The notes under the pieces: generated by a model | Told to the model about the DNA's origin: nothing | Seen by the model: only the letters and a program-made list of their open reading frames with translations | Databases searched by the model: none | Part shown: in pieces, positions 2,235-63,900 of the stretch | How the letters are laid out: each line of letters starts with the position of its first letter | How positions within the stretch are numbered: the stretch's first letter is position 1 | Assembly (NCBI GenBank): GCA_009773645.1 | Contig: WSYB01000009.1 | Coordinates: forward strand, 1,480 to 65,479 | DNA from: Geobacteraceae bacterium | GTDB taxonomy: Bacteria > Desulfobacterota > Desulfuromonadia > Geobacterales > Geobacteraceae | Length of the DNA: 64,000 nucleotides | Reading direction: 5' to 3' | Program-made: the position numbers and the translations under genes

Positions 2235-3062
2235 TCATCTCTTGTCACGTTCGATGGCCGCATAGGCGGAGTGTTTATGGATCGACTCGAAGTTTTCCGC
2301 TTCCACGGCAAACCAGGTAATGTTTTCCATGGCGAGGAGTTTCTGGGTGGCCTCACGGACGATGTCTTCAACAAACTTGGGATTCTCGAAGGCCTGCTCG
2401 GTGACGAACTTCTCATCCTCCCTTTTCAGGAGTGAAAAGACCGGGCTTGAGCCGCACCCTTCGATGATCTCAATCAGGTCCTCGATCCAGATGAATTCCC
2501 GGTAACGGACCCTGACCGTGATGATGCTTCTCTGGTTATGGGCGCCGTAGCGGGAGAGCTCCTTGCTGCAGGGGCAGAGGGACGTGACCGGAATTTTTAT
2601 GCCCAGGACGAAATCGAATGCGGTGGAGAGGGTGGCGATGAATTCGCAGGTATACTCCATGAGGCTTTTAGCGTGTGAGACCGGCGCACTCTTTTCGATG
2701 AAGTAGGGGAACTCGATCTCCAGGTGGGCGCTTCCCGCCCCCAGTTTCTCTTTCATCCGCTCCAGGATGGTCTCCATCTTGTCGAGGGCAATCTCTTCCC
2801 GGTAGGAGTTGAGGATCTCGATGAAGCGGCTCATGTGGGTCCCCTTGAAATGATGGGGAAGGTCCACATACATGTTCACCCGCGCCACGGTATGCTGGAT
2901 CGACTTGTTCTTGTCCATGACCACGATGGGGTAGGAGATGTCCTTCACTCCCACCTTGCTGATGGGGATTTTCCGGGTGTCGCGCGTGGTTTGCATGTCG
3001 GGCATGCAAACCCGTGAGGCGTGAGGGGTGAGGCGTGAGGGTGTGAGTGTTTTTTTTTCCAT
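2235..3062 (-). CDS. folE2: GTP cyclohydrolase FolE2/MptA family (type IB)
   Basis: RKIPISKVGVKDISYPIVVMDK...HMSRFIEIL...SLCPCSKE are FolE2 motifs. Start set at the ATG at 3062 (MEKK...) because GAGGAG lies 9 nt upstream; the alternative starts at 3005 and 2996 lack an RBS. Confidence 0.85.
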   Translation of the reverse strand: MEKKTLTPSRLTPHASRVCMPDMQTTRDTRKIPISKVGVKDISYPIVVMDKNKSIQHTVARVNMYVDLPHHFKGTHMSRFIEILNSYREEIALDKMETILERMKEKLGAGSAHLEIEFPYFIEKSAPVSHAKSLMEYTCEFIATLSTAFDFVLGIKIPVTSLCPCSKELSRYGAHNQRSIITVRVRYREFIWIEDLIEIIEGCGSSPVFSLLKREDEKFVTEQAFENPKFVEDIVREATQKLLAMENITWFAVEAENFESIHKHSAYAAIERDKR

Positions 3063-3097
3063 CGGTTGTTTCTCCTCACTCCTCACTCTTCACTCCT
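3013..3097. repeat. Inverted arrays of degenerate GTGAGG(N) units bracketing the queC stop and folE2 start
   Basis: cgtgaggcgtgaggggtgaggcgtgagggtgtgagtg (3013-3049) faces ctcctcactcctcactcttcactcc (3072-3096). The T-rich loop holds the folE2 ATG (3062). The queC TGA (3083-3085) lies in the right arm. Confidence 0.7.
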
Positions 3098-3772
3098 TAC
3101 GTCGTACCTGACGGGGTCAGGTACGCCCGCCTCGGCGAATCCCTTCAGGCGCAGGCGGCAGGAATCGCACAGGCCGCAGGCGAGCCCTTCCGGGGAGGGG
3201 TCATAACAGGAATGGGTGCAGGAATAATCCACTCCCAGGGAGAGTCCCCTGGCTATGATCTCCCCCTTGGTCAGATGAATGAGGGGGGTGTGGATCTTGA
3301 ACCGGCCGGTCCCTTCCACCCCCGCCTTGGTGGCCAGGTTGGCCATTGTCTCATAGGCGGCGATGTATGCCGGGCGGCAGTCGGGATAGCCGGAATAGTC
3401 CAGGGCGTTCACGCCGATGAAGATGTCGAAGGCGCCGAGCACCTCGGCCCACCCGAGGGCAAAGGAGAGGAAGATGGTGTTTCTGGCCGGTACGTAGGTC
3501 ACCGGGATGTCGCTCCCCACCCCTTCCTTCGGCACTGCAATCTCTGCCGTCAGGGCGCTCCCCCCCATTTTGCGCAGGTCGAACTCCACCACCAGATGTT
3601 CCGCCGCCCCCATCGGCAGGGCGTTGGCCTTGGCGAATTCCAGTTCGGCCTTGTGGCGCTGACCATAGGCGAAGCTGATGGCGTACGGCTCGAACCCCTC
3701 TGCTCTGGCGATCGACAGGCAGGTGGTGGAGTCGAGACCGCCGCTGTAAAGGACGACGACTTTTTTAGACAT
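3083..3772 (-). CDS. queC: 7-cyano-7-deazaguanine synthase
   Basis: [19 protein letters not shown] (PP-loop), [10 protein letters not shown] and a C-terminal [10 protein letters not shown] zinc site. Start trimmed to the ATG at 3772. Confidence 0.9.
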
Positions 3773-11003: not shown

Positions 11004-11032
11004 GCCACGGAGGCACAGAGACACGGAGAAAA
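11004..11032. repeat. CACRGAGN octamer array (single arm) upstream of the ABC-F start
   Basis: gccacggaggcacagagacacggagaaaa. Same word family as the arms at 22709, 27009 and 28516. Confidence 0.7.
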
Positions 11033-19032: not shown

Positions 19033-19049
19033 ATTAGGCAGCTTTTTTA

Positions 19050-19136
19050 AGTCCCCCTTTTTGTAAAGGGGGATTGAGGGGGATTTAGCACCGGTGATCA
19101 AATCCCCCCTTGCCCCCCTTTACGAAAGGGGGGATG
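19050..19136. repeat. CCCCCTTT(N)AAAGGGGG multi-hairpin element, copy 1
   Basis: agtccccctttttgtaaagggggattgagggggatttagca...aaatccccccttgcccccctttacgaaagggggga. It fills the sucA-sucB gap. Confidence 0.85.
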
Positions 19137-19158
19137 AAAATCTTTGAAAGGCATAATT

Positions 19159-20352
19159 ATGGAAATTAAAGTTCCCGAAGTGGGCGAATCGGTATTTGAG
19201 GCGCTCGTGGCCAGGTGGTACAAAAAGGATGGCGAGCGGGTGGCTAAAGACGAGCCTCTCTGTGAGGTGGAGACCGACAAGATCACCTTCGAGATCAGCG
19301 CCGAAGCTGCCGGCATCCTTTCCATCGGTGTGCCGGAGGGGACGACGGTCAAGATCGGCAGCGTTATCGGAGCTATAGAGGAGAAAGCCCCGCTGGAAAC
19401 GACTCCGCGGGAAGAAAAGAAGGAGACCGTTCTCCCGGCCGTCTCTCCAGCGGAGCCGGCGCGGCGCGTTCCTCCCTCGGAGCGAAAGGCTGCCCGTGAA
19501 AAGGAAATAGAGGCGGAAAAGCCGGGAAGCGGGAAGCGGGAAGCGGGAAGCGGGGAACAACAAGCGGGGACCGGGGACCGGGGACCGGGGATCGGCAAAG
19601 CGAAGGAGCAAATCTTAAGCCTCGAACCTCGAACTTCGGACCTCAAGGCCGAAGGCCGCGAAACCCGCAAGCCGATGACGCCCATTCGGCGGCGGATCGC
19701 GGAACGGTTGCTTTCGGCGCGCCAGCAGACTGCCATGCTCACCTCCTTCAACGAGGCGGATATGAGCGGGGTGGCCGCCCTGCGGCAGAAACACAGGGAG
19801 GATTTCAAGAAGAAGCACGGCGTTTCCCTGGGGCTCATGCCGTTTTTCGTCAAGGCCTGCGTTGAGGCGCTCCAGGAGTTTCCCCAGGTCAACGCCCGGA
19901 TCGACGGGGACGACATCGTTTATCATCATTTCTACGACATCGGCATTGCCGTCAGCGGGGAAAAGGGGCTGGTGGTGCCGGTGCTGCGGGACGCCGACCG
20001 GCTCCATTTTGCCGGGATCGAGAAGACCATCGAGGACTTCGTGGAACGGATCAGGACCAATAAATTGAACATTTCCGACCTGGAGGGAGGAACCTTCACC
20101 ATCACCAACGGCGGCGTGTTCGGCTCGCTCCTCAGCACCCCCATCATCAATCCCCCGCAGAGCGCGGTTCTGGGGATGCACGCCATTCAGGACCGTCCGG
20201 TGGCGCGAGACGGCAAGGTGGTGATCCAGCCGATGATGTACCTGGCCCTTTCCTATGACCATCGGATCATCGACGGCCGTGAGGCGGTGCAGTTCCTGAA
20301 AAAGGTCAAGGATTATATCGAAGAGCCGGTGGAGATGCTGCTGGAGGGGTGA
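19159..20352 (+). CDS. sucB: Dihydrolipoamide succinyltransferase (2-oxoglutarate dehydrogenase E2)
   Basis: Lipoyl domain [12 protein letters not shown]...[12 protein letters not shown] and catalytic domain ending [15 protein letters not shown]. The middle region is repeat-derived. Confidence 0.9.
19523..19594. repeat. Two heptanucleotide microsatellites, (GGGAAGC)x4 and (GGGGACC)x3.5, inside sucB
   Basis: cgggaagcgggaagcgggaagcgggaagcggggaacaacaagcggggaccggggaccggggaccggggatcgg. It encodes [25 protein letters not shown]. Confidence 0.9.
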
Positions 20353-20383: not shown

Positions 20384-21211
20384 ATGTTTACTAAACGCCA
20401 TGCAATCCTATGCAGCGTTTTTGCAGTGTGCATGTTTACAGGATGTGTCACAACTCCATTTCCGCAGTTAGTAGAAGCTGAAAAAAAGCAGGCGGCCGCG
20501 ATGAATATCGCTTCATACGAGCAAATTCGGCCTGCGATTGAGAAAATTCAGGCAGGAGACACTCGAGACAAAGTACTGGGTATTGTAAAACCAAAAAAAG
20601 ATGAGGGAAATTATATTTCTATAACTCAACGGGGAGTAGTCACAGGTATTTACATTTACCATAATTGGCCCGGTGTACTGACTACTTTTGATAGAGCGGG
20701 TTACTTCGAACCCGAAAAGCTCAGGGAGATACATTTGGGTTACCTGGAAGGACAGATGCTGAGACCGAGAAAGATCATAATCTTCGAGAAAGACAAGGTA
20801 TCGCAAATTCTAGACGTGCCCGATCCTTTGGCTCTGGCACTGGAGCCAGGTGTGACAATCAAGAAACTGGATTGGTTGTCCTTTATGCGCAAGGAAGCCT
20901 ATACAGGATTGTTCTTGCCCAAAAAAGACCGTATCGTCCGTGGAATGCACAGGTGGGAACTCTTTATCCTTCTGGGGGCAAATTACATGATGAGTACTGA
21001 CTGGCAATCCTTCACGATCATGTGTCCCGGTTTTTTGAACTACAGTCGTAGCGAATTTTCTAAGGAAACCCAGGAGGGCATCCGCACGGTTTATCCCTTT
21101 GGGTACCTGGATGGAGATAGAGAGGTCATAGAGTGGGAAGTGGAACTGCTAAACTTCCGTGTCACAGATGTGAGGCCATACCGGGATGAAACAAAGAATA
21201 AATTCCACTAG
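20384..21211 (+). CDS. Hypothetical lipoprotein, visibly lower GC than its neighbours
   Basis: Signal plus lipobox-like MFTKRHAILCSVFAVCMFTGC. I recognise no family. AT-rich codon usage contrasts with sucB and lpd. Confidence 0.6.
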   Translation: MFTKRHAILCSVFAVCMFTGCVTTPFPQLVEAEKKQAAAMNIASYEQIRPAIEKIQAGDTRDKVLGIVKPKKDEGNYISITQRGVVTGIYIYHNWPGVLTTFDRAGYFEPEKLREIHLGYLEGQMLRPRKIIIFEKDKVSQILDVPDPLALALEPGVTIKKLDWLSFMRKEAYTGLFLPKKDRIVRGMHRWELFILLGANYMMSTDWQSFTIMCPGFLNYSRSEFSKETQEGIRTVYPFGYLDGDREVIEWEVELLNFRVTDVRPYRDETKNKFH

Positions 21212-21279: not shown

Positions 21280-22704
21280 ATGCCCGAAGAAATCTACGAC
21301 CTGATCGTTATCGGCGCCGGTCCCGGCGGTTACGTGGCCGCCATCCGCGCTGTCCAGCTGGGGATGAAAGTCGCTGTGGTGGAGCGGAACGAGTGGCTTG
21401 GCGGGGTCTGCCTCAACGAGGGGTGCATCCCGAGCAAGGCGCTCCTCGACTCCAGCGAGATGTTTGCCTTGGCGCGGGACAAGTTCGCCAGCCACGGTAT
21501 CGACATCAGTCCTCCTTCCCTTAACCTGGCGCGGATGATGGCGCGCAAGGACGATGTGGTGAAAAAGCTCACCGATGGTATTGCCTTTCTTTTCAAGAAG
21601 AACAGGATCACCCGTTTCCAGGGGACTGCCAAGCTCGGCGGAGCTCGCAAGGACGGCATGCAGGTGGTAGAGGTGCTGACCCCCGCAATGCCGGCCATTC
21701 CTCAACTTGTGAACGGCAGGCGGGTGCTGCTGGCAACGGGGAGCCAGGCGGTGGAGGTCCCGGCGTTTCCCTTTGACGGCGATACCGTGGTCAGTGCCCG
21801 AGAGGCCCTTGCCTTCAGCGTCGTGCCGGTACATCTGCTCGTCGTCGGCGGCGGCTACATCGGCCTGGAGCTCGGTTCGGTCTGGTTGCGCCTCGGCAGC
21901 AAGGTCACCGTGGCGGAGATGCTCCCCGGCATCCTCCCCAACACAGACCGGCAGGTGGCGGAAACGCTGCTGCGCTCCCTGAAAAAGCAGGGGATGACCT
22001 TTCACCTTGAAACAAAGGTTTCTTCAATCGAGAAACGGGACGGCAAGGCTTATGTGCAGCTGGTCAGCGGCGATAAAATTGATGAAATAATCTGCGACAA
22101 GGTTCTCGTGGCGGTCGGCCGTAAGCCGCTGACAGCCGGACTCGGTCTCGAACAGTTGGGGGTCGCCCCGGACGCAAACGGCCGGATAACGGTAAACGAT
22201 AATTACGAGACCGCCGTTTCGGGCATCTACGCCATCGGTGATCTGATCCAGGGGCCGATGCTGGCCCACAAGGCGATGGAAGAGGGGGTGGTGTTTGCGG
22301 AGCGGCTTGCAGGGCAGGCCTCCGTGGTCGAATACGACTACGTTCCCGGTATCGTCTATACCTGGCCGGAGGCGGCGTCTGTGGGAAAAACTGAAGAGCA
22401 GTTGACGGATGAGGGCATCCCGTACGCCGCCGGGAGGTTCAACTTCATGGGCAACGGCCGGGCCAGATGCCTGGACGAGACCGAGGGGTTTGTGAAAATC
22501 CTTGCCCACCGGGAGACCGGCCGGGTCCTCGGCATCCATGTCATCGGCCCGCGGGCCTCGGATATGATCGCCGAGGCGGTGACGGTCATGACTTACGGAG
22601 GGAGCGCCCAGGACATCGCCATGACCTTCCATGCCCATCCGACCCTGTCGGAGGCGGTAAAGGAGGCGGCGCTGGACGTGGAAAAGAGAGCGATTCATTC
22701 TTGA
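21280..22704 (+). CDS. lpdA: Dihydrolipoyl dehydrogenase (E3)
   Basis: GAGPGGY FAD site, redox-active GGVCLNEGCIPSK, a second GGGYIGLE dinucleotide fold and a C-terminal HAHPTLSE. Confidence 0.95.
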   Translation: MPEEIYDLIVIGAGPGGYVAAIRAVQLGMKVAVVERNEWLGGVCLNEGCIPSKALLDSSEMFALARDKFASHGIDISPPSLNLARMMARKDDVVKKLTDGIAFLFKKNRITRFQGTAKLGGARKDGMQVVEVLTPAMPAIPQLVNGRRVLLATGSQAVEVPAFPFDGDTVVSAREALAFSVVPVHLLVVGGGYIGLELGSVWLRLGSKVTVAEMLPGILPNTDRQVAETLLRSLKKQGMTFHLETKVSSIEKRDGKAYVQLVSGDKIDEIICDKVLVAVGRKPLTAGLGLEQLGVAPDANGRITVNDNYETAVSGIYAIGDLIQGPMLAHKAMEEGVVFAERLAGQASVVEYDYVPGIVYTWPEAASVGKTEEQLTDEGIPYAAGRFNFMGNGRARCLDETEGFVKILAHRETGRVLGIHVIGPRASDMIAEAVTVMTYGGSAQDIAMTFHAHPTLSEAVKEAALDVEKRAIHS

Positions 22705-22708
22705 TCTT

Positions 22709-22939
22709 TGCCACAGAGACACAGAGCCACGGAGATAAATGCAGAAAAAACCGGTTTTTTGCTTTTCGATTACCCCAAGATTACCTCAGATTTTAAACCT
22801 TATGTAAGGTGGTATTGGAATTACGAAGTAATCGTGAAGTAATCGTGAAGTAATCGTGAGGTAATCGTGAGGTAATCGTGAGGTCGAAGAAAGTTTTTAA
22901 AATTTTTTTCCTTCTCTGTGCCTCTGTGTCTCTGTGGCA
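22709..22939. repeat. Nested long inverted repeat built from octamer arrays (CACRGAGN arms), filling the lpd-aconitase gap
   Basis: The left arm tgccacagagacacagagccacggagataaa pairs with the right arm ttccttctctgtgcctctgtgtctctgtggca. The inner left segment cgattaccccaagattacctcag is complementary to the 11-mer array. Confidence 0.85.
22825..22885. repeat. 11-bp tandem repeat, about 5.5 copies (GARGTAATCGT)
   Basis: gaagtaatcgt x3 then gaggtaatcgt x2 then gaggtc, read directly. Confidence 0.95.
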
Positions 22940-22962
22940 GAAGTTAGGTAAGGAGGTATGTC

Positions 22963-24897
22963 ATGGGTAAGAACCTTGCAACAAAAATTCTTGAAGCCCA
23001 CCTCGTCGAAGGGGAACTGATTCCCGGCAAAGAGATCGCCATCAAGATCGACCACACCCTCCTCCAGGACGCCACCGGCACCATGGCGATGCTGGAGTTC
23101 ATGGCCATGGGGGCGCCGCGGGCAAAGGTGGAACTGGCGGCCCAGTACATCGACCATAATCTCCTCCAGACCGACAGCAAGAATGCCGACGACCACGTCT
23201 TCCTGATGACGGCGGCGCAGAAGTTCGGCATTCACCTATCCAAGCCTGGAAACGGCGTCTCCCACCAGGTGCACCTGGAGCGCTTCGGCGCGCCGGGCAA
23301 GGTAATGCTCGGCGCAGACTCCCATACCCCGACGGCGGCGGGCCTTGCCATGCTCGCCATCGGCGCCGGCGGGCTCGATGTGGCCATGGCCATGGCCGGT
23401 CATCCGTTCCATCTCCCCTGTCCGCGGATTTGGGGGGTGAAGCTCACGGGAAAGCTCCCCGACTGGGTTTCCGGCAAGGATGTGATCCTGGAGATGCTGC
23501 GCCGTCATACGGTCAAGGGGGGGGTCGGGAAGATCATCGAATACTACGGGCCGGGGGTGGAGACCCTGTCGGCAACCGACCGGGGGACCATCGGCAACAT
23601 GGGAGCAGAGCTTGGAGCGACCACCTCCGTCTTCCCTTCGGACCACCGCACCAGGGAATTTCTCGAAGCCCAGGGGAGGGGGGAATGCTGGCAGCCTCTG
23701 ACAGCCGATCCGGATGCCGCGTACGACGAATACGACGAGATCGACCTTTCCGCTCTGGAGCCGCTCATCGCTTGTCCTTCTTCGCCCGATAACGTGGTGA
23801 AGGTCAAGGATGTGGAGGGGGTAAAGGTGGACCAGGTCATAGTGGGGAGTTCGGTAAACTCATCGTTCCGCGACCTGATGGTCGTCTGCAGGATATTGGA
23901 CGGGAAGCGGGTCGCCCCCCACGTCTCCTTCAACATCAATCCGGGGAGCCGCCAGGTACTGGAAAACGTCGCAGCCCAGAGCGGCTTCATGTCGCTGCTA
24001 CTGGCCGGAGCGCAGGTCCACCAGCCCGGCTGCCTGGGGTGCATCGGCATGGGGCAGGCGCCCGGAACCAACCAGGTGTCCCTTCGCACCTTCCCGCGCA
24101 ATTTCCCCGGCCGAAGCGGCGTGAAGAACGACCGGGTCTACCTCTGCTCTCCGGAAACCGCGGCGGCGGCCGGCATCTACGGGGTCATCACCGATCCGCG
24201 CAAGCTCGGGGAATTCGGTCCTTGTCCGCGGGTGGAAAACCCGCAGAAATACCTGCTGGACGACTCCAGTATCATCCCCCCGCTGGAGGATACCAGCGGG
24301 GTGGAGATCGTCACCGGTCCGAATATCGTTCCCTTCCCGGAATTCGAGGAGCTGCCCGGGGAACTCACCGCGGAGGTCATCATCAAGGTAGAAGACAACA
24401 TCTCCACCGATACCATCATGCCGGCAGGCAACCGGGTCCTCCCGTTCCGGAGCAACATCCCGGCCATAAGCCAGTTTGTCTTCGAGCAGATCGACCCGGA
24501 CTTCCACAAGCGGGCAAAAGAAAAGGGGAACGGTGTTGTTGTAGGCGGCGAGAATTACGGCCAGGGGTCATCCCGCGAGCATGCGGCCCTGGCGCCCCGC
24601 TATCTGGGTATCCGCGCCAAGATCGCCAAGAGTTTCGCCCGCATCCACAAGGCGAACCTGATCAACTTCGGCATCCTCCCGCTCACCTTCGAGAACCCGG
24701 CCGATTATGGCCTGGTGAAACAGGGGGACAAGGTCACCTTCAAAAACCTCCGGGACCTCATCGCTTCCGGCGCGAAGGAGATACCGGTGCAGGTGGACGG
24801 GAGGGAGATCGTCACCATCCTGGAAGTTTCCGAGCGAGAGCGACAGGACCTGCTTGCGGGTGGGACGCTTAATTATGTGAAAAAGGGGAATTTGTAG
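22963..24897 (+). CDS. Aconitate hydratase (short, about 645-aa type)
   Basis: IDHTLLQDATG, GADSHT, cluster ligands ..QPGCLGCIGMG.., and the swivel domain GENYGQGSSREHAA. AGGAGG RBS upstream. Confidence 0.9.
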   Translation: MGKNLATKILEAHLVEGELIPGKEIAIKIDHTLLQDATGTMAMLEFMAMGAPRAKVELAAQYIDHNLLQTDSKNADDHVFLMTAAQKFGIHLSKPGNGVSHQVHLERFGAPGKVMLGADSHTPTAAGLAMLAIGAGGLDVAMAMAGHPFHLPCPRIWGVKLTGKLPDWVSGKDVILEMLRRHTVKGGVGKIIEYYGPGVETLSATDRGTIGNMGAELGATTSVFPSDHRTREFLEAQGRGECWQPLTADPDAAYDEYDEIDLSALEPLIACPSSPDNVVKVKDVEGVKVDQVIVGSSVNSSFRDLMVVCRILDGKRVAPHVSFNINPGSRQVLENVAAQSGFMSLLLAGAQVHQPGCLGCIGMGQAPGTNQVSLRTFPRNFPGRSGVKNDRVYLCSPETAAAAGIYGVITDPRKLGEFGPCPRVENPQKYLLDDSSIIPPLEDTSGVEIVTGPNIVPFPEFEELPGELTAEVIIKVEDNISTDTIMPAGNRVLPFRSNIPAISQFVFEQIDPDFHKRAKEKGNGVVVGGENYGQGSSREHAALAPRYLGIRAKIAKSFARIHKANLINFGILPLTFENPADYGLVKQGDKVTFKNLRDLIASGAKEIPVQVDGREIVTILEVSERERQDLLAGGTLNYVKKGNL

Positions 24898-27008: not shown

Positions 27009-27215
27009 TGCCACAGAGCCACGGAGACGCAGAGAAATCTGAAAAACCTAAAACATGAAACAGTTCACGCAAAGGCGCAAAGGCGCAAAGAAAGACAAAA
27101 ACCTTAAGAAATTTTGGTTTTAAACCCAAAAGACTGAATCTTTGATTTTCCTTTGCGTCTTGGCGTCTTTGCGTGAAAAAGGTTTGCTTTCTCCGTGTCT
27201 CTGTGGCTCTGTGGC
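27009..27215. repeat. Nested long inverted repeat (CACRGAGN outer arms, GCGCAAAG inner arms), filling the pdhB-E2 gap
   Basis: Outer arms gccacagagccacggagacgcagagaaa / tttctccgtgtctctgtggctctgtggc. Inner arms tcacgcaaaggcgcaaaggcgcaaag / cctttgcgtcttggcgtctttgcgtga. Confidence 0.9.
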
Positions 27216-27230
27216 AAGAAAGGTTTTAAA

Positions 27231-28515: not shown

Positions 28516-28742
28516 GCCACAGAGAACACAGAGGGCACAGAGAAAAACTGCATGCATAAAATCCGTTAGTAATCTGCGAAGAACAGAAATGACACAAAGT
28601 TAAATCCTTGAAAAAAAGAATTAACTCAAGGGTTTTTCAACTAATAAAGATTTTCCGGTTTTGCTTTTCTTCGTGTTCCTTCGTGGATAAAGAAGTTTTC
28701 TAACAGAAGATTTATCTCTGTGACCTCTGTGGTCTCTGTGGC
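28516..28742. repeat. Nested long inverted repeat (CACAGAGN outer arms), filling the E2-lipB gap
   Basis: Outer arms gccacagagaacacagagggcacagagaaaaa / atctctgtgacctctgtggtctctgtggc. Inner arms atctgcgaagaacagaaatgacac / cttttcttcgtgttccttcgtggat are partly complementary. Confidence 0.85.
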
Positions 28743-39211: not shown

Positions 39212-39327
39212 GCTAAATCCCCCCCCGGCCCCCCTTTCCAAAAGGGGGGGTATTTAGCTTTCCCCTTTACAAAAAGGGGATTACTTTAACTTCCCCCTTT
39301 CGTAAAGGGGGATTGAGGGGGATTTAA
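39212..39327. repeat. CCCCCTTT(N)AAAGGGGG multi-hairpin element, copy 2 (three hairpins)
   Basis: gctaaatccccccccggcccccctttccaaaagggggggtatttagc, then tttcccctttacaaaaagggga, then ttccccctttcgtaaagggggattgagggggattt. Confidence 0.85.
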
Positions 39328-39346: not shown

Positions 39347-40708
39347 ATGAACCCGAAACTCATTGAATTATTTAACAAAATAAAAGAAAAAGGCCTTACC
39401 CCCGAGCGGGAAGAACGGCTTCTGGCGGAGCTCCATTTCGAAGGGGCTCACGGAATTCCGGGGAAACCGGCCGGCGGGGGGATCGTTCCCAGTATATATG
39501 AGCAGAACGATCTGTCCGTGCTGCAAGAGATGCCGGCGCCCCATGCCGCTTACACGACCTGTCTCCACTCCCTGGATGAGCTGCTGGAGCGGGATCTGCG
39601 GCGTGAAGAAGACGGATTCCCGCGGAAAATAAGGGTGGGACGTTTGATCAAGCCCGGCAGGGGGGGGAAGGACAAGGTTGTGGTCGTCCCCACCACGGTG
39701 GAGGAAAAATTTATCCACGATAACGTCATTGCCCCTTCTGAAGAAGGCGGCGCCTCGGGCGGGACGGGAGAAGGCGAAGAGGGAGAAATCATAGGCGAGC
39801 AGCCGGTGCGTCCCACAGAGGAGCCCGGCGCGGGCGGTGCCGGACAAGGGGAAGGGGAGTCGCATGAGATGGAGTCCAGCGCCTATGAGCTGGGGAGGAT
39901 CCTCACGGAAAAATTCCAGCTCCCCAACCTCAAGGAGAAGGGGAAAAAGCGTTCCTTCACCCGTTATACCTACGACCTGACCGACAGGAACCGCGGATTC
40001 GGCCAGGTTCTCGATAAAAAGGCGACGCTGCGCAAGATTCTGGAAACCAACATCAATCTGGGGAATATCCCCGATGTGGGGGATGTCGATACGACCCGTT
40101 TCCTGGTCTCCCCCCGCGACAGGATTTATCGCATCCTCTCCCGTGAAAAGGATTACGAGTCCCAGGCCATGGTCTTTTTCCTGAGGGACTACTCCGGCTC
40201 CATGATGGGCAAGGTCACCGAACTGGTGGCGACCCAGCACGTGATGATCTACAGCTGGCTTCTCTATCAGTATGCCCGGCAGGTGGAATCGCGCTTCATC
40301 CTCCATGATACCGAGGCCAAGGAAGTGCCGGACTTCTACACCTATTACAACTCGAAAGTGGCCGGCGGAACGCAGGTGTCCTCTGCCTACCGTCTGGTGA
40401 ACGAAATCGTGGCGAAGGAAAACCTGGCAAGGGACTACAATGTCTACGTTTTCCACGGCACCGACGGCGATGACTGGGACAGCGGAGGGGAAGAGGCCAT
40501 TCCTGAGCTGAAAAAGATGCTCACCTATACGAGCAGGGTCGGCGTTACCATCGCGGAGCACGGTTACAGCCATAACACCGAAGTGGAGAATTATCTGAAG
40601 GGTTCGGGGCTTCTGAACGAGAAGCCGGACCTCCTCCGGCTCGATGTCATGGGGGAAGACTCGGATGAGCCGAGGCTTATCGAGGGAATAAAGAAGCTTA
40701 TTTCTTAG
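39347..40708 (+). CDS. YeaH/YhbH family protein (DUF444, vWA-like)
   Basis: Acidic Gly-rich insert, then RDYSGSMMG (MIDAS-like DxSxS region) and HGTDGDDWD. Position between prkA and spoVR. Confidence 0.85.
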   Translation: MNPKLIELFNKIKEKGLTPEREERLLAELHFEGAHGIPGKPAGGGIVPSIYEQNDLSVLQEMPAPHAAYTTCLHSLDELLERDLRREEDGFPRKIRVGRLIKPGRGGKDKVVVVPTTVEEKFIHDNVIAPSEEGGASGGTGEGEEGEIIGEQPVRPTEEPGAGGAGQGEGESHEMESSAYELGRILTEKFQLPNLKEKGKKRSFTRYTYDLTDRNRGFGQVLDKKATLRKILETNINLGNIPDVGDVDTTRFLVSPRDRIYRILSREKDYESQAMVFFLRDYSGSMMGKVTELVATQHVMIYSWLLYQYARQVESRFILHDTEAKEVPDFYTYYNSKVAGGTQVSSAYRLVNEIVAKENLARDYNVYVFHGTDGDDWDSGGEEAIPELKKMLTYTSRVGVTIAEHGYSHNTEVENYLKGSGLLNEKPDLLRLDVMGEDSDEPRLIEGIKKLIS

Positions 40709-40793
40709 GAGCGAGGAATGAGGAACGAGGAGCCAGGAATAAGGAACAAGGAACAAGAAAAGCCTTTAACCTCGATCCTTTTGCCTCGAACCT
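40708..40793. repeat. Degenerate GAGGAAN/AAGGAAC array facing CCTCGANCC units (intercistronic hairpin-type repeat)
   Basis: ggagcgaggaatgaggaacgaggagccaggaataaggaacaaggaacaag ... cctcgatccttttgcctcgaacc. Begins at the last base of the yeaH-like stop codon. Confidence 0.6.
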
Positions 40794-40803
40794 GATCTTA
40801 ATT

Positions 40804-42438
40804 ATGGAACTGATCAATCAGCATACGAAAAATATCATGGAAGGGTGCAAGGAGAGGGCGCGCAAGGCGGGCCTTTCCTTTCAGGACGAAACCCTGGAAT
40901 ATATCGTGACCAACCGCGACCTCCTGGAGCTCTCGCCCAAGGTGATGATCCCGACCCTTTACGACTACTGGGTGCACGACGTTGACGTCCTGAAAGAAAA
41001 GGGGAAGTACGAGCTGTATCCCCACAATCCCTATGAAACCGTCATCAACACCCGGCCCCCCATCTCCTTTTACAATGACAACAACCCGGACTGGCTGAAC
41101 GTGATGATCTTTTACCACGTCCTGGCCCATATCGATTTTTTCCAGAACAATCTCTATTTCCGCCATACCTGGGACTACGATTTTAACGGCCAGGCACTTT
41201 CGGACAAACGGACCATCGCCAAGCTCAGGGCGGAAAAGGGGCGGTGGGTGGACTACGTGATCGAATTTGCGCGCGGCATTGATAATCTCGTGGGGTATCA
41301 CAGCGAGTTGTCGCGGCTCCACCGTCCCCCCGCGACCAACCGGTCAAAACGTCTCGATTTTTACTTCGACGTCTTCCTGCAGTCCGTGAAAAAAGTGTCT
41401 GTCACCGAATATGTCAAGGAAATAGAGAGGTACAACGACAGTATCAAGAACTTCGGAAAGCAGGGGGAGAAGACGTTCTTCGCCGACGCGGAGCGGAAAT
41501 ACCCTGAACTGGAGGCGCTTTTCACCAGGAGCCTGGGTGAAAAAGCGAACCACCGAAGGGATCTGATGCAGTTCATGATGGACCATTCCGAGTTCCTGAA
41601 GAAGGATGCGAATACGTGGATGAAATCGGTAATGGAGGTGGTGCGCAAGACCTCCATCTTTTTCCAGCCGCAGATCCGGACGAAGATCATGAATGAAGGG
41701 TGGGCCAGTTACTGGCATGACCGGCTCTTCATGCAGGATGACCGTATCCGGGGGCATGAGGTGGATTATGCCCGGATCAATGCCGGGGTCACCGCCATGC
41801 CGCGCGTGGGACTGAACCCCTATGCGCTCGGGATGCGCCTCTTTTCCCATATTGAAGAAACAGCCGATAAGGGGAGATACACCTTTGACTTCCTGCGACT
41901 CTCTGACGCGGAAGCGCGGGAAGAGTTCGATACCGTCACCGGCGAGGGACAAAAGTATATCTTCAGTGTCCGGGAAAATCTGTGCGACTTCACGTTTATA
42001 AAGACCTTTGTGGAGCAGGATTTCATCAACGAGCACAAACTGTTTGTGGCCGGGAAGAGGTTGAACCAGGGGAGGATGGTGTGGGAGTATTATGTCAAGA
42101 GCCGCAAAGCGGATGTGTATCGCCGGATGGTTCTCGATTCACTCTATCATCCCCCATTCATTGAGGTGGACCCGAAAAAAACCGCCGGCAACACCCTCTA
42201 TCTCGTCCATCACTTCGAGGGGAAACCGCTGGTAAAGGAATACATCGCCAATACCATGATGGGGATCGAATATCTCTGGGGCGGCCCGGTCCAGTTGGAG
42301 ACGAGCGTGGTAGAGGCCGAATTGCCGGCGCAGGAGTCGGCTGCGATGGTGGAAGAGACGGAACCCCGCATAAAATGGTGCCGGGTCCTGTATACCATGA
42401 AGGAGCGGCAGCTTTCGCAACAACAAATAGAAACGTGA
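40804..42438 (+). CDS. spoVR: SpoVR family protein
   Basis: 544 aa. YHVLAHIDFFQNN, NEGWASYWH and a conserved C-terminal LYLVHHFEGKPL-type region. Confidence 0.9.
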   Translation: MELINQHTKNIMEGCKERARKAGLSFQDETLEYIVTNRDLLELSPKVMIPTLYDYWVHDVDVLKEKGKYELYPHNPYETVINTRPPISFYNDNNPDWLNVMIFYHVLAHIDFFQNNLYFRHTWDYDFNGQALSDKRTIAKLRAEKGRWVDYVIEFARGIDNLVGYHSELSRLHRPPATNRSKRLDFYFDVFLQSVKKVSVTEYVKEIERYNDSIKNFGKQGEKTFFADAERKYPELEALFTRSLGEKANHRRDLMQFMMDHSEFLKKDANTWMKSVMEVVRKTSIFFQPQIRTKIMNEGWASYWHDRLFMQDDRIRGHEVDYARINAGVTAMPRVGLNPYALGMRLFSHIEETADKGRYTFDFLRLSDAEAREEFDTVTGEGQKYIFSVRENLCDFTFIKTFVEQDFINEHKLFVAGKRLNQGRMVWEYYVKSRKADVYRRMVLDSLYHPPFIEVDPKKTAGNTLYLVHHFEGKPLVKEYIANTMMGIEYLWGGPVQLETSVVEAELPAQESAAMVEETEPRIKWCRVLYTMKERQLSQQQIET

Positions 42439-42469
42439 AGAATGAAGGGTGAAGTTTCACCATTCACGA
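42435..42469. repeat. GTGAAG-unit hairpin between spoVR and the prkA-like gene
   Basis: gtgaagaatgaagggtgaag-ttt-caccattcacg. The spoVR TGA (42436-42438) lies within the first unit. Confidence 0.6.
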
Positions 42470-63542: not shown

Positions 63543-63900
63543 GGCTTTTTTTCCTCCTTTCGAAAGTTTTCCGCAATCATCCATGATATGTTTTTTCATT
63601 ACCTGCCTGTAAATCCTGATTGATCTTTTTTTCTGTCTCTCTGTCTCCTTTCCTTTGGTTTTATAGTCCTGTTAAAAACAAAGTGGCCGGACATGCCATC
63701 AGGAAAAATCCTTCGGCAGCCCGGCCATCTTCCATTGCGAAGACCCGCGGCATTCCGCCTCCGCCTCACGACGGGTTCGGCCTTTCGGGATAATAAAGAG
63801 AAACCGACTTAATTTGTCTGATCCAGATAAAACCGACTCAAGACACTTCAACCCTATATTTCTTCTACTTGTGATGCTCTCGCAAATTCTCAAAAATAGT

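What the first reader, a model, noticed from the sequence alone, without database searches (positions are those of the whole stretch)
22709..22939. Long nested hairpin built from degenerate octamer arrays plus an 11-bp tandem repeat exactly fills the lpd-aconitase intercistronic gap
The element starts 5 nt after the lpd stop and ends 24 nt before the aconitase ATG, leaving only the AGGAGG RBS. The outer arms are three CACRGAGN units each and are mutually complementary. Inside, cgattaccccaagattacctcag on the left is complementary to 5.5 copies of GARGTAATCGT on the right (22825-22885), so the right arm has expanded asymmetrically. The same architecture recurs at 27009-27215, 28516-28742, 3013-3097, 40708-40793 and 42435-42469, with different inner words. 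This looks like a family of transcribed structured spacers that grow by tandem unit duplication rather than a conventional REP or MITE. They could set differential mRNA stability, processing or translational coupling within a long central-metabolism operon.
Basis: seen in the sequence. Interest (0 to 1): 0.62.

Follow-up and report, generated by a model that had tools for sequence, protein, structure and literature searches.

The report
Gene-less copy of nuclease hairpin cassette
The long hairpin between the lpd and aconitase genes is real. It is one of about 50 gene-less copies of a dispersed inverted-repeat element whose full-length form carries a small uncharacterised nuclease gene, so it looks like a tolerated genomic parasite or symbiont rather than a purpose-built regulator of this operon.

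Summary
Window 22709-22939 is a nested palindrome. Its outer arms are 3x CACRGAGN facing 3x NCTCYGTG (27 nt, 93% complementary). Inside, 5.2 copies of GARGTAATCGT face 2 complementary units. It fills the lpd-aconitase gap.

It is not special to this operon. The genome is a groundwater Geobacteraceae MAG with about 50 CACRGAG-armed copies and about 660 heptamer or octamer arrays. 90% of paired elements lie in co-directional gaps, about 13 nt after a stop codon and about 20 nt before a start codon.

The arms are the "class 2 global-regulator sites" (TCTCCGTS x3, paired) that Aklujkar et al. 2009 listed in G. metallireducens.

New here:
- The same arms bracket a GxxExxY/PDDEXK_3 gene (a Cas4/RecB-like nuclease fold) at contig C60 of this genome and in at least 7 relatives.
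- 24 of 26 such genes have array arms, against 2 of 200 control genes.
- Arm word tracks protein clade.
- Genomes rich in a given word carry a gene armed with that word.
- A filled/empty site pair shows a ~197-nt insertion between TAG and ATG, with at most 2 nt duplicated.

G·U versus A·C mismatches are symmetric (67:71), and orthologous gaps hold different elements. The RNA hairpin is therefore probably a by-product.

The parts
22709..22735 (.). Left outer arm: TGC + CACAGAGA CACAGAGC CACGGAGA (three octamers)
   Evidence: The consensus of 66 genome-wide ends is AAATYTGC|CACRGAGA CACRGAGA CACGGAGA AAA.
22913..22939 (.). Right outer arm: TCTCTGTG CCTCTGTG TCTCTGTG + GCA. It is the reverse complement of the left arm (93%).
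22745..22760 (.). Small AT-rich palindrome AAAAAACC/GGTTTTTT in the left spacer
   Evidence: I12; paired in the fold.
22767..22788 (.). Inner left arm: two units CGATTACCCCA / AGATTACCTCA. This is the arm of a second, nested mini-element.
   Evidence: I3-I6. The same module is present in four other CACRGAG elements of the genome.
22789..22824 (.). Central loop region with a small hairpin (AAACCTTATGTAAGGT)
   Evidence: fold.
22825..22884 (.). Inner right arm: 5.2 tandem copies of GARGTAATCGT. It has expanded from the 2-3 units seen in paralogous copies.
   Evidence: (D1).
22890..22907 (.). AT-rich palindrome AAAGTTTTTAAAATTTTT in the right spacer
   Evidence: I10.
22950..22965 (+). Shine-Dalgarno AAGGAGG and the aconitase ATG (22963), immediately after the element
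21280..22704 (+). lpd (dihydrolipoyl dehydrogenase). Its stop codon lies 4 nt before the element.
27009..27216 (.). Second copy (pdhB-E2 gap): CACRGAG arms enclosing a CGCAAAGG array pair. The pdhB stop codon TAA abuts the terminal extension TAACATCTGC.
   Evidence: CGCAAAG arms bracket another GxxExxY gene at C20:39941-40291.
28516..28742 (.). Third copy (E2-lipB gap): 9-mer CACAGAGNN arms, 32 nt, 91% complementary
11006..11028 (+). Solo left arm CACGGAGG CACAGAGA CACGGAG with no partner arm

Best explanation
The element is a gene-less miniature copy of an inverted-repeat cassette family. The family's full-length members enclose a ~123-aa GxxExxY (PDDEXK_3) nuclease gene between the same tandem-octamer arms. 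More precisely, it is two such mini-cassettes nested: an inner CACGATTAC-type pair inside an outer CACRGAG-type pair.

Shown:
- Family membership.
- Shared arms with an ORF-bearing copy in the same genome.
- Copying of the composite as a unit.
- Presence/absence at one orthologous site.
- Local expansion of one array by unit duplication.

Inferred:
- The conserved octamers are recognition sites for the cognate nuclease, acting in trans from contig C60:5098-5613. That nuclease, or a host pathway it triggers, copies the arms into new sites without a target-site duplication.
- Copies survive almost only at operon junctions. There the self-folding insert loops itself out of the mRNA, and its ends supply a stop-proximal A/T stretch and an AAAGG-type ribosome-binding sequence. 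Expression of the flanking genes is therefore little disturbed.
- The long RNA hairpin is thus a by-product. It may still alter mRNA processing by double-strand-specific RNases.
For: Family and earlier description:
- About 50 copies in the genome always show the polarity CACRGAG...CTCYGTG and never the reverse.
- The core octamer positions are 97-100% conserved, while interiors of the same subfamily are only 50-71% identical.
- The same arms were catalogued as class 2 paired sites (three TCTCCGTS[Y], 21 pairs) in G. metallireducens (PMC2700814).

Link to the nuclease gene:
- A GxxExxY gene lies between CACGGAG x3 arms in this genome at C60. These are the best-paired arms of all copies (32 of 34 Watson-Crick).
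- The same holds in G001, G016, G025, G027, G031, G032 and G035.
- 24 of 26 PDDEXK_3 genes of the order are flanked by an inverted repeat of at least 16 nt, against 2 of 200 control small genes (P = 7e-28).
- Arm word classes need only 12 changes on the protein tree, which is the minimum. Shuffled labels need 19.1, and 0 of 200 shuffles are as low.
- Genomes richest in CACGGAT arrays (G033 77 hits, G027, G003) or CACGAAG arrays (G007 88 hits, G014, G029, G035) each carry a PDDEXK_3 gene armed with that word.
- 11 of 23 genomes with PDDEXK_3 have at least 9 CACRGAG arms, against 0 of 8 genomes without it (P = 0.03).

The protein:
- It has invariant E27, D67, E77-x-K79 and Q91xxxY95.
- A confident model (pLDDT 96) is closest to Cas4 SSO0001, AddAB/AdnAB nuclease domains and lambda exonuclease.

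Mobility and tolerance:
- In G032, ~197 nt lie exactly between TAG and ATG. Congener G029 has TAGATG at the same site, with at most 2 nt duplicated, and the insert supplies AAAAAAGG 9 nt before the ATG.
- The same arm word occurs patchily across the phylum, in 19 of 401 genomes, with up to 53 hits in a distant family.
- 94 of 104 paired elements are in co-directional gaps (P = 2e-5 to 4e-9).
- The median distance from stop codon to arm is 13 nt, and from arm to start codon 20 nt.
Against: - No biochemical or genetic test links the nuclease to the arms.
- Co-variation of protein clade and arm word could reflect co-inheritance of gene plus arms rather than recognition. Five of the tree's rows are one orthologous locus (the mutase-epimerase gap).
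- The gene might be a passenger that homes into hairpin centres. The unrelated 23S-rRNA-IVS protein genes sit in heptamer-array pairs in the same way.
- For three CACRGAG-rich genomes (G012, G026, G029) I did not verify a CACRGAG-armed gene.
- The one filled/empty pair could be a precise deletion rather than an insertion.
- The two metagenome assemblies holding this organism show no variation in the element, but they are contigs from the same study and drop rare variants.
- The paralogous copies are 30-50% diverged, so recent activity in this genome is not shown.
Confidence: 0.65

Rival explanations
1. A selected cis-acting RNA element. The transcribed hairpin would be maintained because it sets differential mRNA stability, RNase III processing or translational coupling between lpd and aconitase and in other operons.
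For: - It lies inside operons at a tight register to stop and start codons.
- The predicted RNA fold is extremely stable.
- Contigs from runs labelled RNA-Seq run through a CACRGAG element into nuoE in a relative (weak, because these are 'RNA?' metagenomic libraries kept as contigs).
- REP hairpins are known to stabilise upstream mRNA in E. coli (own knowledge).
- Rehm et al. 2015 report that most heptamer arrays in Xanthomonas are transcribed (PMC4692102).
Against: - Arm mismatches show no transcript-strand bias: G·U 67 against A·C 71, P = 0.8.
- Arms co-vary only weakly.
- The - strand folds as well as the + strand.
- Orthologous gaps in relatives with 86% amino-acid identity carry different interiors, other palindromes or no spacer at all.
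- Four congeners hold four different module combinations at one site.
- There is no Rfam match and no terminator-like site.
Confidence: 0.12
2. Arrays of binding sites for a chromosomal protein, as Aklujkar et al. proposed (a global regulator or an IHF/HU-type nucleoid protein). The paired arms would organise DNA or regulate transcription, and the nuclease gene would be unrelated.
For: - Core octamer positions are almost invariant, while only the R and N positions vary. That is the pattern of a protein-recognition motif.
- The two arms are largely independent at variable positions.
- The hypothesis was published in PMC2700814.
Against: - The elements are depleted from divergent, promoter-bearing gaps (4 of 104).
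- Dozens of different words share the same architecture, which would need dozens of regulators.
- The word tracks the enclosed nuclease clade.
- Distribution across the phylum is patchy.
Confidence: 0.1
3. Local genesis without mobility. Slippage would create tandem arrays, and hairpin-templated repair would copy them to the other arm, so each gap grows its own palindrome in place.
For: - Unit-number asymmetries exist: 5.2 against 2 units here, and 6 against 3 at C27:68434.
- One orthologous site differs in module content among four congeners.
Against: - Every word family has a fixed polarity.
- The same word and the same terminal extension occur at about 50 unlinked sites and in distant families.
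- Five composite copies align end to end.
- A clean filled/empty site exists.
Confidence: 0.05

Closest known systems
Class 2 'predicted global regulator binding sites' of Geobacter metallireducens (Gmet_I2xxA/B; Aklujkar et al. 2009, PMC2700814)
   Same: - The word is identical: three tandem TCTCCGTS[Y], the reverse complement of CACGGAGA.
- Sites are paired on opposite strands at variable distance.
- They are intergenic and in the same bacterial family.
- Classes 1 and 3 of that paper (GTTGCTYN, MTYCTGA) and the in-gene heptamers also have counterparts here.
   Different: - The paper treats the two arms as separate protein-binding sites unique to that species.
- The text I read mentions no nested modules and no link to a nuclease gene.
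- Here the family is found in 17 of 41 genomes of the order and 19 of 401 genomes of the phylum.
REP/REPIN elements and their RAYT transposases (Bertels and Rainey 2011, PMC3116915; PMC3337134)
   Same: - Short, gene-less, palindromic intergenic copies in tens per genome.
- About one enzyme gene per genome is flanked by the same repeats.
- No target-site duplication.
- Long persistence.
   Different: - The arms are tandem octamer arrays, not a single GTAG-type imperfect palindrome.
- The associated gene is a PD-(D/E)XK (Cas4/RecB-like) nuclease, not an HUH Y1 transposase.
- The RAYT genes of this genome are flanked by classical REPs, not by arrays.
MITEs (miniature inverted-repeat transposable elements)
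   Same: Terminal inverted repeats of about 35-40 nt, a variable interior, and non-autonomous copies that outnumber the full-length form.
   Different: - No target-site duplication (at most 2 nt).
- No DDE transposase parent.
- Nested modular interiors.
Heptamer simple-sequence repeats of Xanthomonas (GGGAATC) and Nostoc (GGGGAYT) (Rehm et al. 2015, PMC4692102), and TAACTGA repeats of Beggiatoaceae (PMC4679880)
   Same: - Tandem 7-nt arrays are abundant.
- They are enriched between aligned ORFs and depleted between divergent ORFs.
- They lie within about 50 bp of stop or start codons.
- They are mostly transcribed.
   Different: - Those papers interpret the arrays as G-quadruplex or regulatory repeats.
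- No cargo gene was reported in the abstracts I read.
- The present arms are octamers that cannot form G4.
23S rRNA intervening sequences carrying an S23p/IVP ORF (own knowledge: Leptospira, Coxiella)
   Same: A stem-forming inverted-repeat insert that may carry a small ORF. In this order, IVP genes are likewise bracketed by inverted heptamer arrays.
   Different: This element is in an mRNA spacer, not in rRNA. It carries no ORF, and its arm type goes with GxxExxY rather than IVP.

Membership tests
Aklujkar class 2 paired sites | Three tandem repeats of consensus TCTCCGTS[Y] per site | tested here: met
   The right arm is TCTCTGTG CCTCTGTG TCTCTGTG and the left arm is its complement. Genome-wide consensus. 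Definition quoted.
Aklujkar class 2 paired sites | Sites occur in pairs on opposite strands at variable distance, between genes | tested here: met
   33 strict pairs plus about 15 pairs with a degenerate partner, with interiors of 3-470 nt. 29 of the 32 CACRGAG-type elements classified lie in co-directional intergenic gaps.
GxxExxY (PDDEXK_3) array-armed cassette, gene-less form | Inverted arms made of tandem 8-10-nt units of the C[AG]C.GA.. type, with GCCAC...GTGGC ends | tested here: met
   The arms of 24 of 26 PDDEXK_3 genes are of this type, with periods of 8-10.
GxxExxY (PDDEXK_3) array-armed cassette, gene-less form | A full-length copy with the same arm word and a PDDEXK_3 gene exists in the same genome | tested here: met
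   C60:5098-5613 has CACGGAGA x3 arms around a 123-aa TIGR04256/PF13366 protein.
GxxExxY (PDDEXK_3) array-armed cassette, gene-less form | No ORF between the arms of this copy | tested here: met
   The interior is 177 nt of nested repeats. The only ORFs listed across it are read-throughs on other frames or strands.
GxxExxY (PDDEXK_3) array-armed cassette, gene-less form | The nuclease recognises and mobilises its own arm word | not testable with these tools
   Only correlative support: tree clustering and word/gene co-occurrence.
REP/REPIN-RAYT | The repeats flank a Y1 (RAYT) transposase gene | tested here: not met
   None of the nine PF01797 hits in the genome has arrays nearby. Three (C32, C23, C4) are flanked by classical GTAGG-type REPs.
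MITE | Target-site duplication flanking the terminal inverted repeats | tested here: not met
   No offset/length combination exceeds shuffled flanks. The filled/empty pair allows at most 2 nt.
Intrinsic terminator | GC-rich short stem followed by a T run | tested here: not met
   0 terminator-like sites in 22500-23100. Paired elements are rare in convergent gaps (6 of 104).
Curated structured RNA (Rfam 15) | Match to a covariance model | tested here: not met
   No match at gathering score. Only chance plant-miRNA hits at E 0.3-0.6.

The most novel reading that the evidence does not exclude
GxxExxY/PDDEXK_3 mini-nucleases and their tandem-octamer arms may form an undescribed class of ultra-compact (~0.5 kb) self-propagating cassette.
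- Its gene-less copies, including this one, would be mobilised in trans.
- Copies would nest inside one another.
- They would be built to be harmless in operons: a palindromic insert lands between a stop and a start codon, loops itself out of the mRNA and brings its own ribosome-binding sequence.
- A parallel system may pair 23S-rRNA-IVS-type four-helix proteins with heptamer arrays. That would explain the roughly 560 heptamer arrays of this genome and possibly the origin of rRNA intervening sequences.
Probability: 0.35. Interest if true: 0.8.

Novelty: new variant of a known kind. Interest (0 to 1): 0.55.

Why it matters
These arrays fill a large share of the intergenic DNA of Geobacter and many other environmental bacteria. 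They have been read as regulator sites, G-quadruplexes or RNA switches.

If they are instead the footprints of a nuclease-borne cassette, several things follow:
- Many 'regulatory' annotations need revision.
- A protein family of unknown function, found in many phyla, gains a testable role.
- Bacteria gain a second repeat-plus-enzyme partnership beside REPIN-RAYT, built on a different enzyme fold.

For this operon, the practical message is that the hairpin should not be assumed to be a designed control element of TCA-cycle gene expression.

Tried and rejected
- Target-site duplication: none at any offset or length.
- RAYT link: rejected.
- Rfam families and terminator/promoter scans: nothing.
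- Transcript-strand asymmetry of wobble pairs: absent.
- Unit-number polymorphism in close strains: the two metagenomes that hold this organism are identical over the element, but they are assembler contigs from one study.
- Exact-protein look-up of lpd in other assemblies: not on record.
- RNA runs for this organism: none. A relative gave none either (L007). Another (L008) gave only contigs of uncertain RNA origin.
- rRNA genes, sought to test for array-armed intervening sequences: absent from this assembly.
- Single-sequence structure prediction of the nuclease failed (pLDDT 33). The 26-sequence alignment then succeeded.
- The PDB holds no sequence relative of the nuclease.
- CsrA-type GGA sites were considered and dropped, because the CACAGAG variant lacks GGA.

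Full report
**1. The observation**

The sequence is as described.
- Window 22709-22939 has outer arms of 27 nt at 93% complementarity. Each arm is three octamers, CACRGAGN on the left and NCTCYGTG on the right, ending TGCCAC...GTGGCA.
- Inside, Tandem Repeats Finder gives 5.2 copies of an 11-mer (GARGTAATCGT, 97% matches, 22828-22884). These are 91% complementary to two units at 22767-22788.
- The lpd stop codon is 4 nt upstream. The aconitase ATG is 23 nt downstream, after AAGGAGG.
- The double-octamer pattern occurs 10 times in the window, against 0.06 expected.
- The gap folds at -100.6 kcal/mol (z = -10) on the + strand. It folds almost as well on the - strand (-91.5 kcal/mol, z = -11).

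- 27009-27216 and 28516-28742 are the same family.
- 3013-3101 has the same architecture with another word.
- 40707-40754 is a one-sided array.
- 42434-42468 is a weak 13-nt hairpin.

**2. Genome-wide picture**

The window lies in a 4.74-Mb, 78-contig, 55% G+C assembly. The assembly belongs to the Geobacteraceae near Geotalea and comes from groundwater metagenomes.
- There are 33 strict CACRGAG pairs plus 20 'orphans', most of which have a degenerate partner. That makes about 50 elements.
- The order is always CACRGAG...CTCYGTG and never the reverse.
- The 66 ends give the consensus AAATYTGC|CACRGAGA CACRGAGA CACGGAGA AAA(A)CC. Six of eight positions in the outer two units are 97-100% conserved.
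- More broadly, the genome has 564 heptamer and 94 octamer arrays of at least 2.8 copies. About three quarters are intergenic. Each word family has its own fixed polarity when paired.
- Of 104 intergenic paired elements, 94 lie between co-directional genes, 6 between convergent genes and 4 between divergent genes. The background share of co-directional gaps is 66-74% (P = 2e-5 to 4e-9).
- For the CACRGAG family, the median distance from the upstream stop codon to the arm is 13 nt. From the arm to the downstream start codon it is 20 nt.

**3. Prior description**

Aklujkar et al. 2009 (PMC2700814) catalogued, in G. metallireducens, 'class 2 predicted global regulator binding sites'. These are 21 paired sites of three tandem TCTCCGTS[Y] on opposite strands at variable distance. 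The paper also lists class 1 (GTTGCTYN x4), class 3 (MTYCTGA x5) and GGACCGG heptamers within and between genes. It proposed IHF/HU-type binding and called the sets unique to that species. TCTCCGTG is the complement of CACGGAGA, so the outer arms here are that class.

The G. bemidjiensis paper (PMC2996986) notes that multicopy sequences occupy 12% of intergenic regions and that insertion is not random. Neither text links the sites to a gene.

The arms are not unique to one species. 17 of 41 genomes of the order and 19 of 401 of the phylum carry the triple octamer. The distribution is patchy, with up to 53 hits in a distant family.

**4. Interiors are modular and nested**

The copies share inner modules:
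- GGGACGCGGATCAAATCTGAAAAGGCGGAT...
- AACAGGGATAAACAGGAT...
- CGCAAAGG arrays
- the CGATTACC/GTAATCG module
- a central TTTGG-TTAAA-CCAAA hairpin

These modules also occur without CACRGAG arms.

The composite 'CACRGAG arms + GTAATCG module' exists in five copies that align end to end at 50-71% identity, spacers included. The composite has therefore been copied as a unit. The other four copies have 2-3 inner units per arm, so the 5.2 units on the right arm here are a local expansion.

**5. Orthologous gaps**

Synteny sucAB-lpd-acn-pdhAB-E2-lipB is kept in three relatives.
- lpd-acn gap: Geobacter sp. H2geo (86% aconitase identity) has a degenerate left CACRGAG arm with a different inner module and no right arm. 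Geotalea SG265 has an unrelated palindrome. Two uncultured Geobacter have other heptamer arrays.
- pdhB-E2 gap: H2geo has only the CGCAAAG pair without outer arms. SG265 has overlapping stop and start codons.
- E2-lipB gap: H2geo has CACRGAG arms with an ACAGGAT interior. SG265 has 11 nt.

In another genus, one orthologous site in four species holds outer arms only, the inner module only, both, or the inner module plus one outer arm.

Such turnover argues against a conserved operon-specific function.

**6. Tests for RNA-level selection**

For the 31 CACRGAG elements in co-directional gaps, I oriented each by transcription and paired 34 positions from the ends.
- The counts were 795 Watson-Crick pairs, 67 G·U, 71 A·C and 121 other. 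There is no excess of wobble pairs in the transcript strand (P = 0.8).
- At the R positions the two arms agree in 60 of 99 cases, against 46 expected from shuffles (P = 0.0035). At the N positions they agree in 37 of 66 against 31.

The arms are therefore mostly independent realisations of a conserved motif, with only weak coupling. This fits recognition of the motif itself better than selection for a helix.

No RNA run exists for this organism. In a relative, contigs of libraries labelled RNA-Seq run through a CACRGAG element in the nuoD-nuoE gap into nuoE. This is weak support for co-transcription.

**7. The link to a nuclease gene**

One CACRGAG pair in this genome (C60:5098-5613) has a 470-nt interior that encodes a 123-aa protein. 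The protein matches PF13366 PDDEXK_3 and TIGR04256 'GxxExxY'. Its arms are the best paired in the genome.

The other PDDEXK_3 genes of the genome sit between other array pairs: CACAGATGA and CGCAAAG. The latter word forms the inner arms of the window's second element.

Across 30 relatives:
- 24 of 26 PDDEXK_3 genes have a flanking inverted repeat of at least 16 nt made of 8-10-nt units of the C[AG]C.GA.. type, against 2 of 200 control small genes (P = 7e-28).
- CACRGAG-armed genes occur in G001, G016, G025, G027, G031, G032 and G035.
- On a protein tree, the 13 arm-word classes need 12 changes, the minimum possible. Shuffled labels need 19.1 (0 of 200 as low). Caveat: five rows are one orthologous locus.
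- Two predictions were then tested. CACGGAT arrays peak in G033 (77 hits), G027 and G003. CACGAAG arrays peak in G007 (88), G035, G014 and G029. Each of these genomes has a PDDEXK_3 gene bracketed by that word.
- Genomes without PDDEXK_3 have no CACRGAG arms, with one exception at 85% completeness.

**8. The protein**

- The 26-sequence alignment has invariant G24, E27, Y30 (the GxxExxY motif), D67, E77, K79, Q91 and Y95. This is a complete PD-(D/E)XK site with the QxxxY motif of RecB-type nucleases.
- No PDB sequence relative exists.
- The AlphaFold model built on the alignment is confident (pLDDT 96.2).
- Its best Foldseek matches are Cas4 SSO0001 (E = 4e-4), AdnAB/AddAB nuclease domains, lambda exonuclease and RecE, at modest TM-scores of 0.4-0.5.
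- The 2012 survey of the superfamily lists PDDEXK_3 as of unknown function with multiple transfers (PMC3424549).
- I found no paper tying it to repeats.

**9. Evidence of insertion**

In G032 a CACRGAG element lies between two genes. Congener G029, with about 90% identical flanks, has ...AAGGTGATGTAGATGCAAA... at the same place, with stop and start codons adjacent.
- The difference is about 197 nt placed exactly between TAG and ATG.
- At most a 2-nt (TC) repeat is present at the junctions.
- The inserted DNA extends 13-14 nt beyond each arm and supplies AAAAAAGG 9 nt before the ATG. It replaces the ribosome-binding sequence that, in the empty site, lies in the end of the upstream gene.

The terminal extension (T)AAAAYCTGC|CAC...GTG|GCARAAAGG(T) recurs in this genome. 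In the window's second copy, the pdhB stop codon TAA abuts the extension, and AAAGGTTTTAAA precedes the E2 ATG. No target-site duplication is detectable genome-wide.

**10. What it is not**

- The nine Y1/RAYT-type genes of the genome have no arrays nearby, and those with visible flanking repeats carry classical REPs.
- Rfam has no model for the element.
- There is no terminator-like or promoter-like site in the gap.

**11. Reading**

The best-supported account is that 22709-22939 is a gene-less copy of the CACRGAG-armed GxxExxY cassette. A second gene-less mini-cassette is nested in its centre, and one array has since expanded by slippage.
- Shown: the family, the shared arms, the copying of the composite, the site polymorphism and the lack of RNA-strand asymmetry.
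- Inferred: that the nuclease recognises the octamers and drives copying; that the palindromic design and the end sequences make the insert tolerable inside operons; and that the RNA hairpin may nevertheless be cut or may stabilise neighbouring mRNA.

**12. Earlier notes of this scan**

I consulted these by words only. They report the same GxxExxY-cassette reading in at least eight other genomes. They are AI notes and do not count as independent support, but they agree with what I derived and tested here.

This report adds:
- the identification with Aklujkar's class 2 sites;
- the strand-asymmetry and arm-coupling tests;
- the nesting of one cassette type in another;
- the register to stop and start codons;
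- the TAG|ATG filled/empty site;
- the split between octamer arms with GxxExxY genes and heptamer arms with IVP genes.

**13. Scores**

- The specific element is an ordinary member of a repeat family whose arms were listed in 2009.
- The family's biology is unexplained in the literature I could search, and it points to a testable role for a large protein family.
- Interest is 0.55. Novelty is 'new variant of a known kind' (a repeat-plus-enzyme partnership of the REPIN-RAYT type with different parts).

Noticed in passing
G000 C20:77686-77979, C36:12007-12321, C47:63054-63365; loci L121-L150: Genes of the 23S-rRNA-intervening-sequence protein family (PF05635, four-helix bundle) are bracketed by inverted arrays of heptamers (GTGAGGG, GGAGTTT, CGGGAAG, GGGGACC and others). 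A crude test finds this in 15 of 23 loci, with period 7. GxxExxY genes have 8-10-nt units instead. This suggests two parallel protein/array pairings.
   Followed up: partly
window 19523-19644: Three heptamer arrays (CGGGAAG x4.6, CGGGGAC x4.4, CCTCGAA x3.6) lie inside the sucB reading frame, in the linker between the lipoyl and catalytic domains. This matches the in-gene heptamer family that Aklujkar et al. reported for G. metallireducens.
   Followed up: no
window 19033-19143 and 39230-39324: A different palindromic repeat built on CCCCCTTT..AAAGGGGGATT fills the sucA-sucB gap and another gap. The core AAAGGGGGATT occurs at 21 loci in the genome and is once nested inside a CACRGAG element (C36:95549).
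   Followed up: partly
window 63712-63791 (- strand): c-di-GMP-I riboswitch aptamer (RF01051, 49 bits, gathering score 35).
   Followed up: no
window 20384-21211: A 275-aa ORF between sucB and lpd has no Pfam match. The sucB-lpd spacing varies from 23 to 1325 nt among relatives.
   Followed up: no
L012 7932-8754 (Geobacter sp. H2geo): A GGDEF-type (diguanylate cyclase-like) gene is inserted between aconitase and pdhA. The window has only 12 nt there.
   Followed up: no
G000 C4:220977 and L008 1420-1527: The nuoD-nuoE gap carries a CACRGAG element in two different genera. In this genome only a left arm is left there. The cause could be an old insertion or a recurrent target.
   Followed up: partly
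G000 C32:48559-48786, C23:30361-30591; L016 2305-3091: RAYT-type Y1 transposase genes flanked by classical GTAGGAGCG... REP palindromes coexist with the array elements, so the genome hosts both repeat systems.
   Followed up: partly
loci L091, L105, L106, L116, L119, L125: The gap between a methylmalonyl-CoA-mutase-like gene and an epimerase-like gene holds a GxxExxY cassette in three families of the order and an IVP cassette in a fourth genome. This is a conserved 'landing site'.
   Followed up: no
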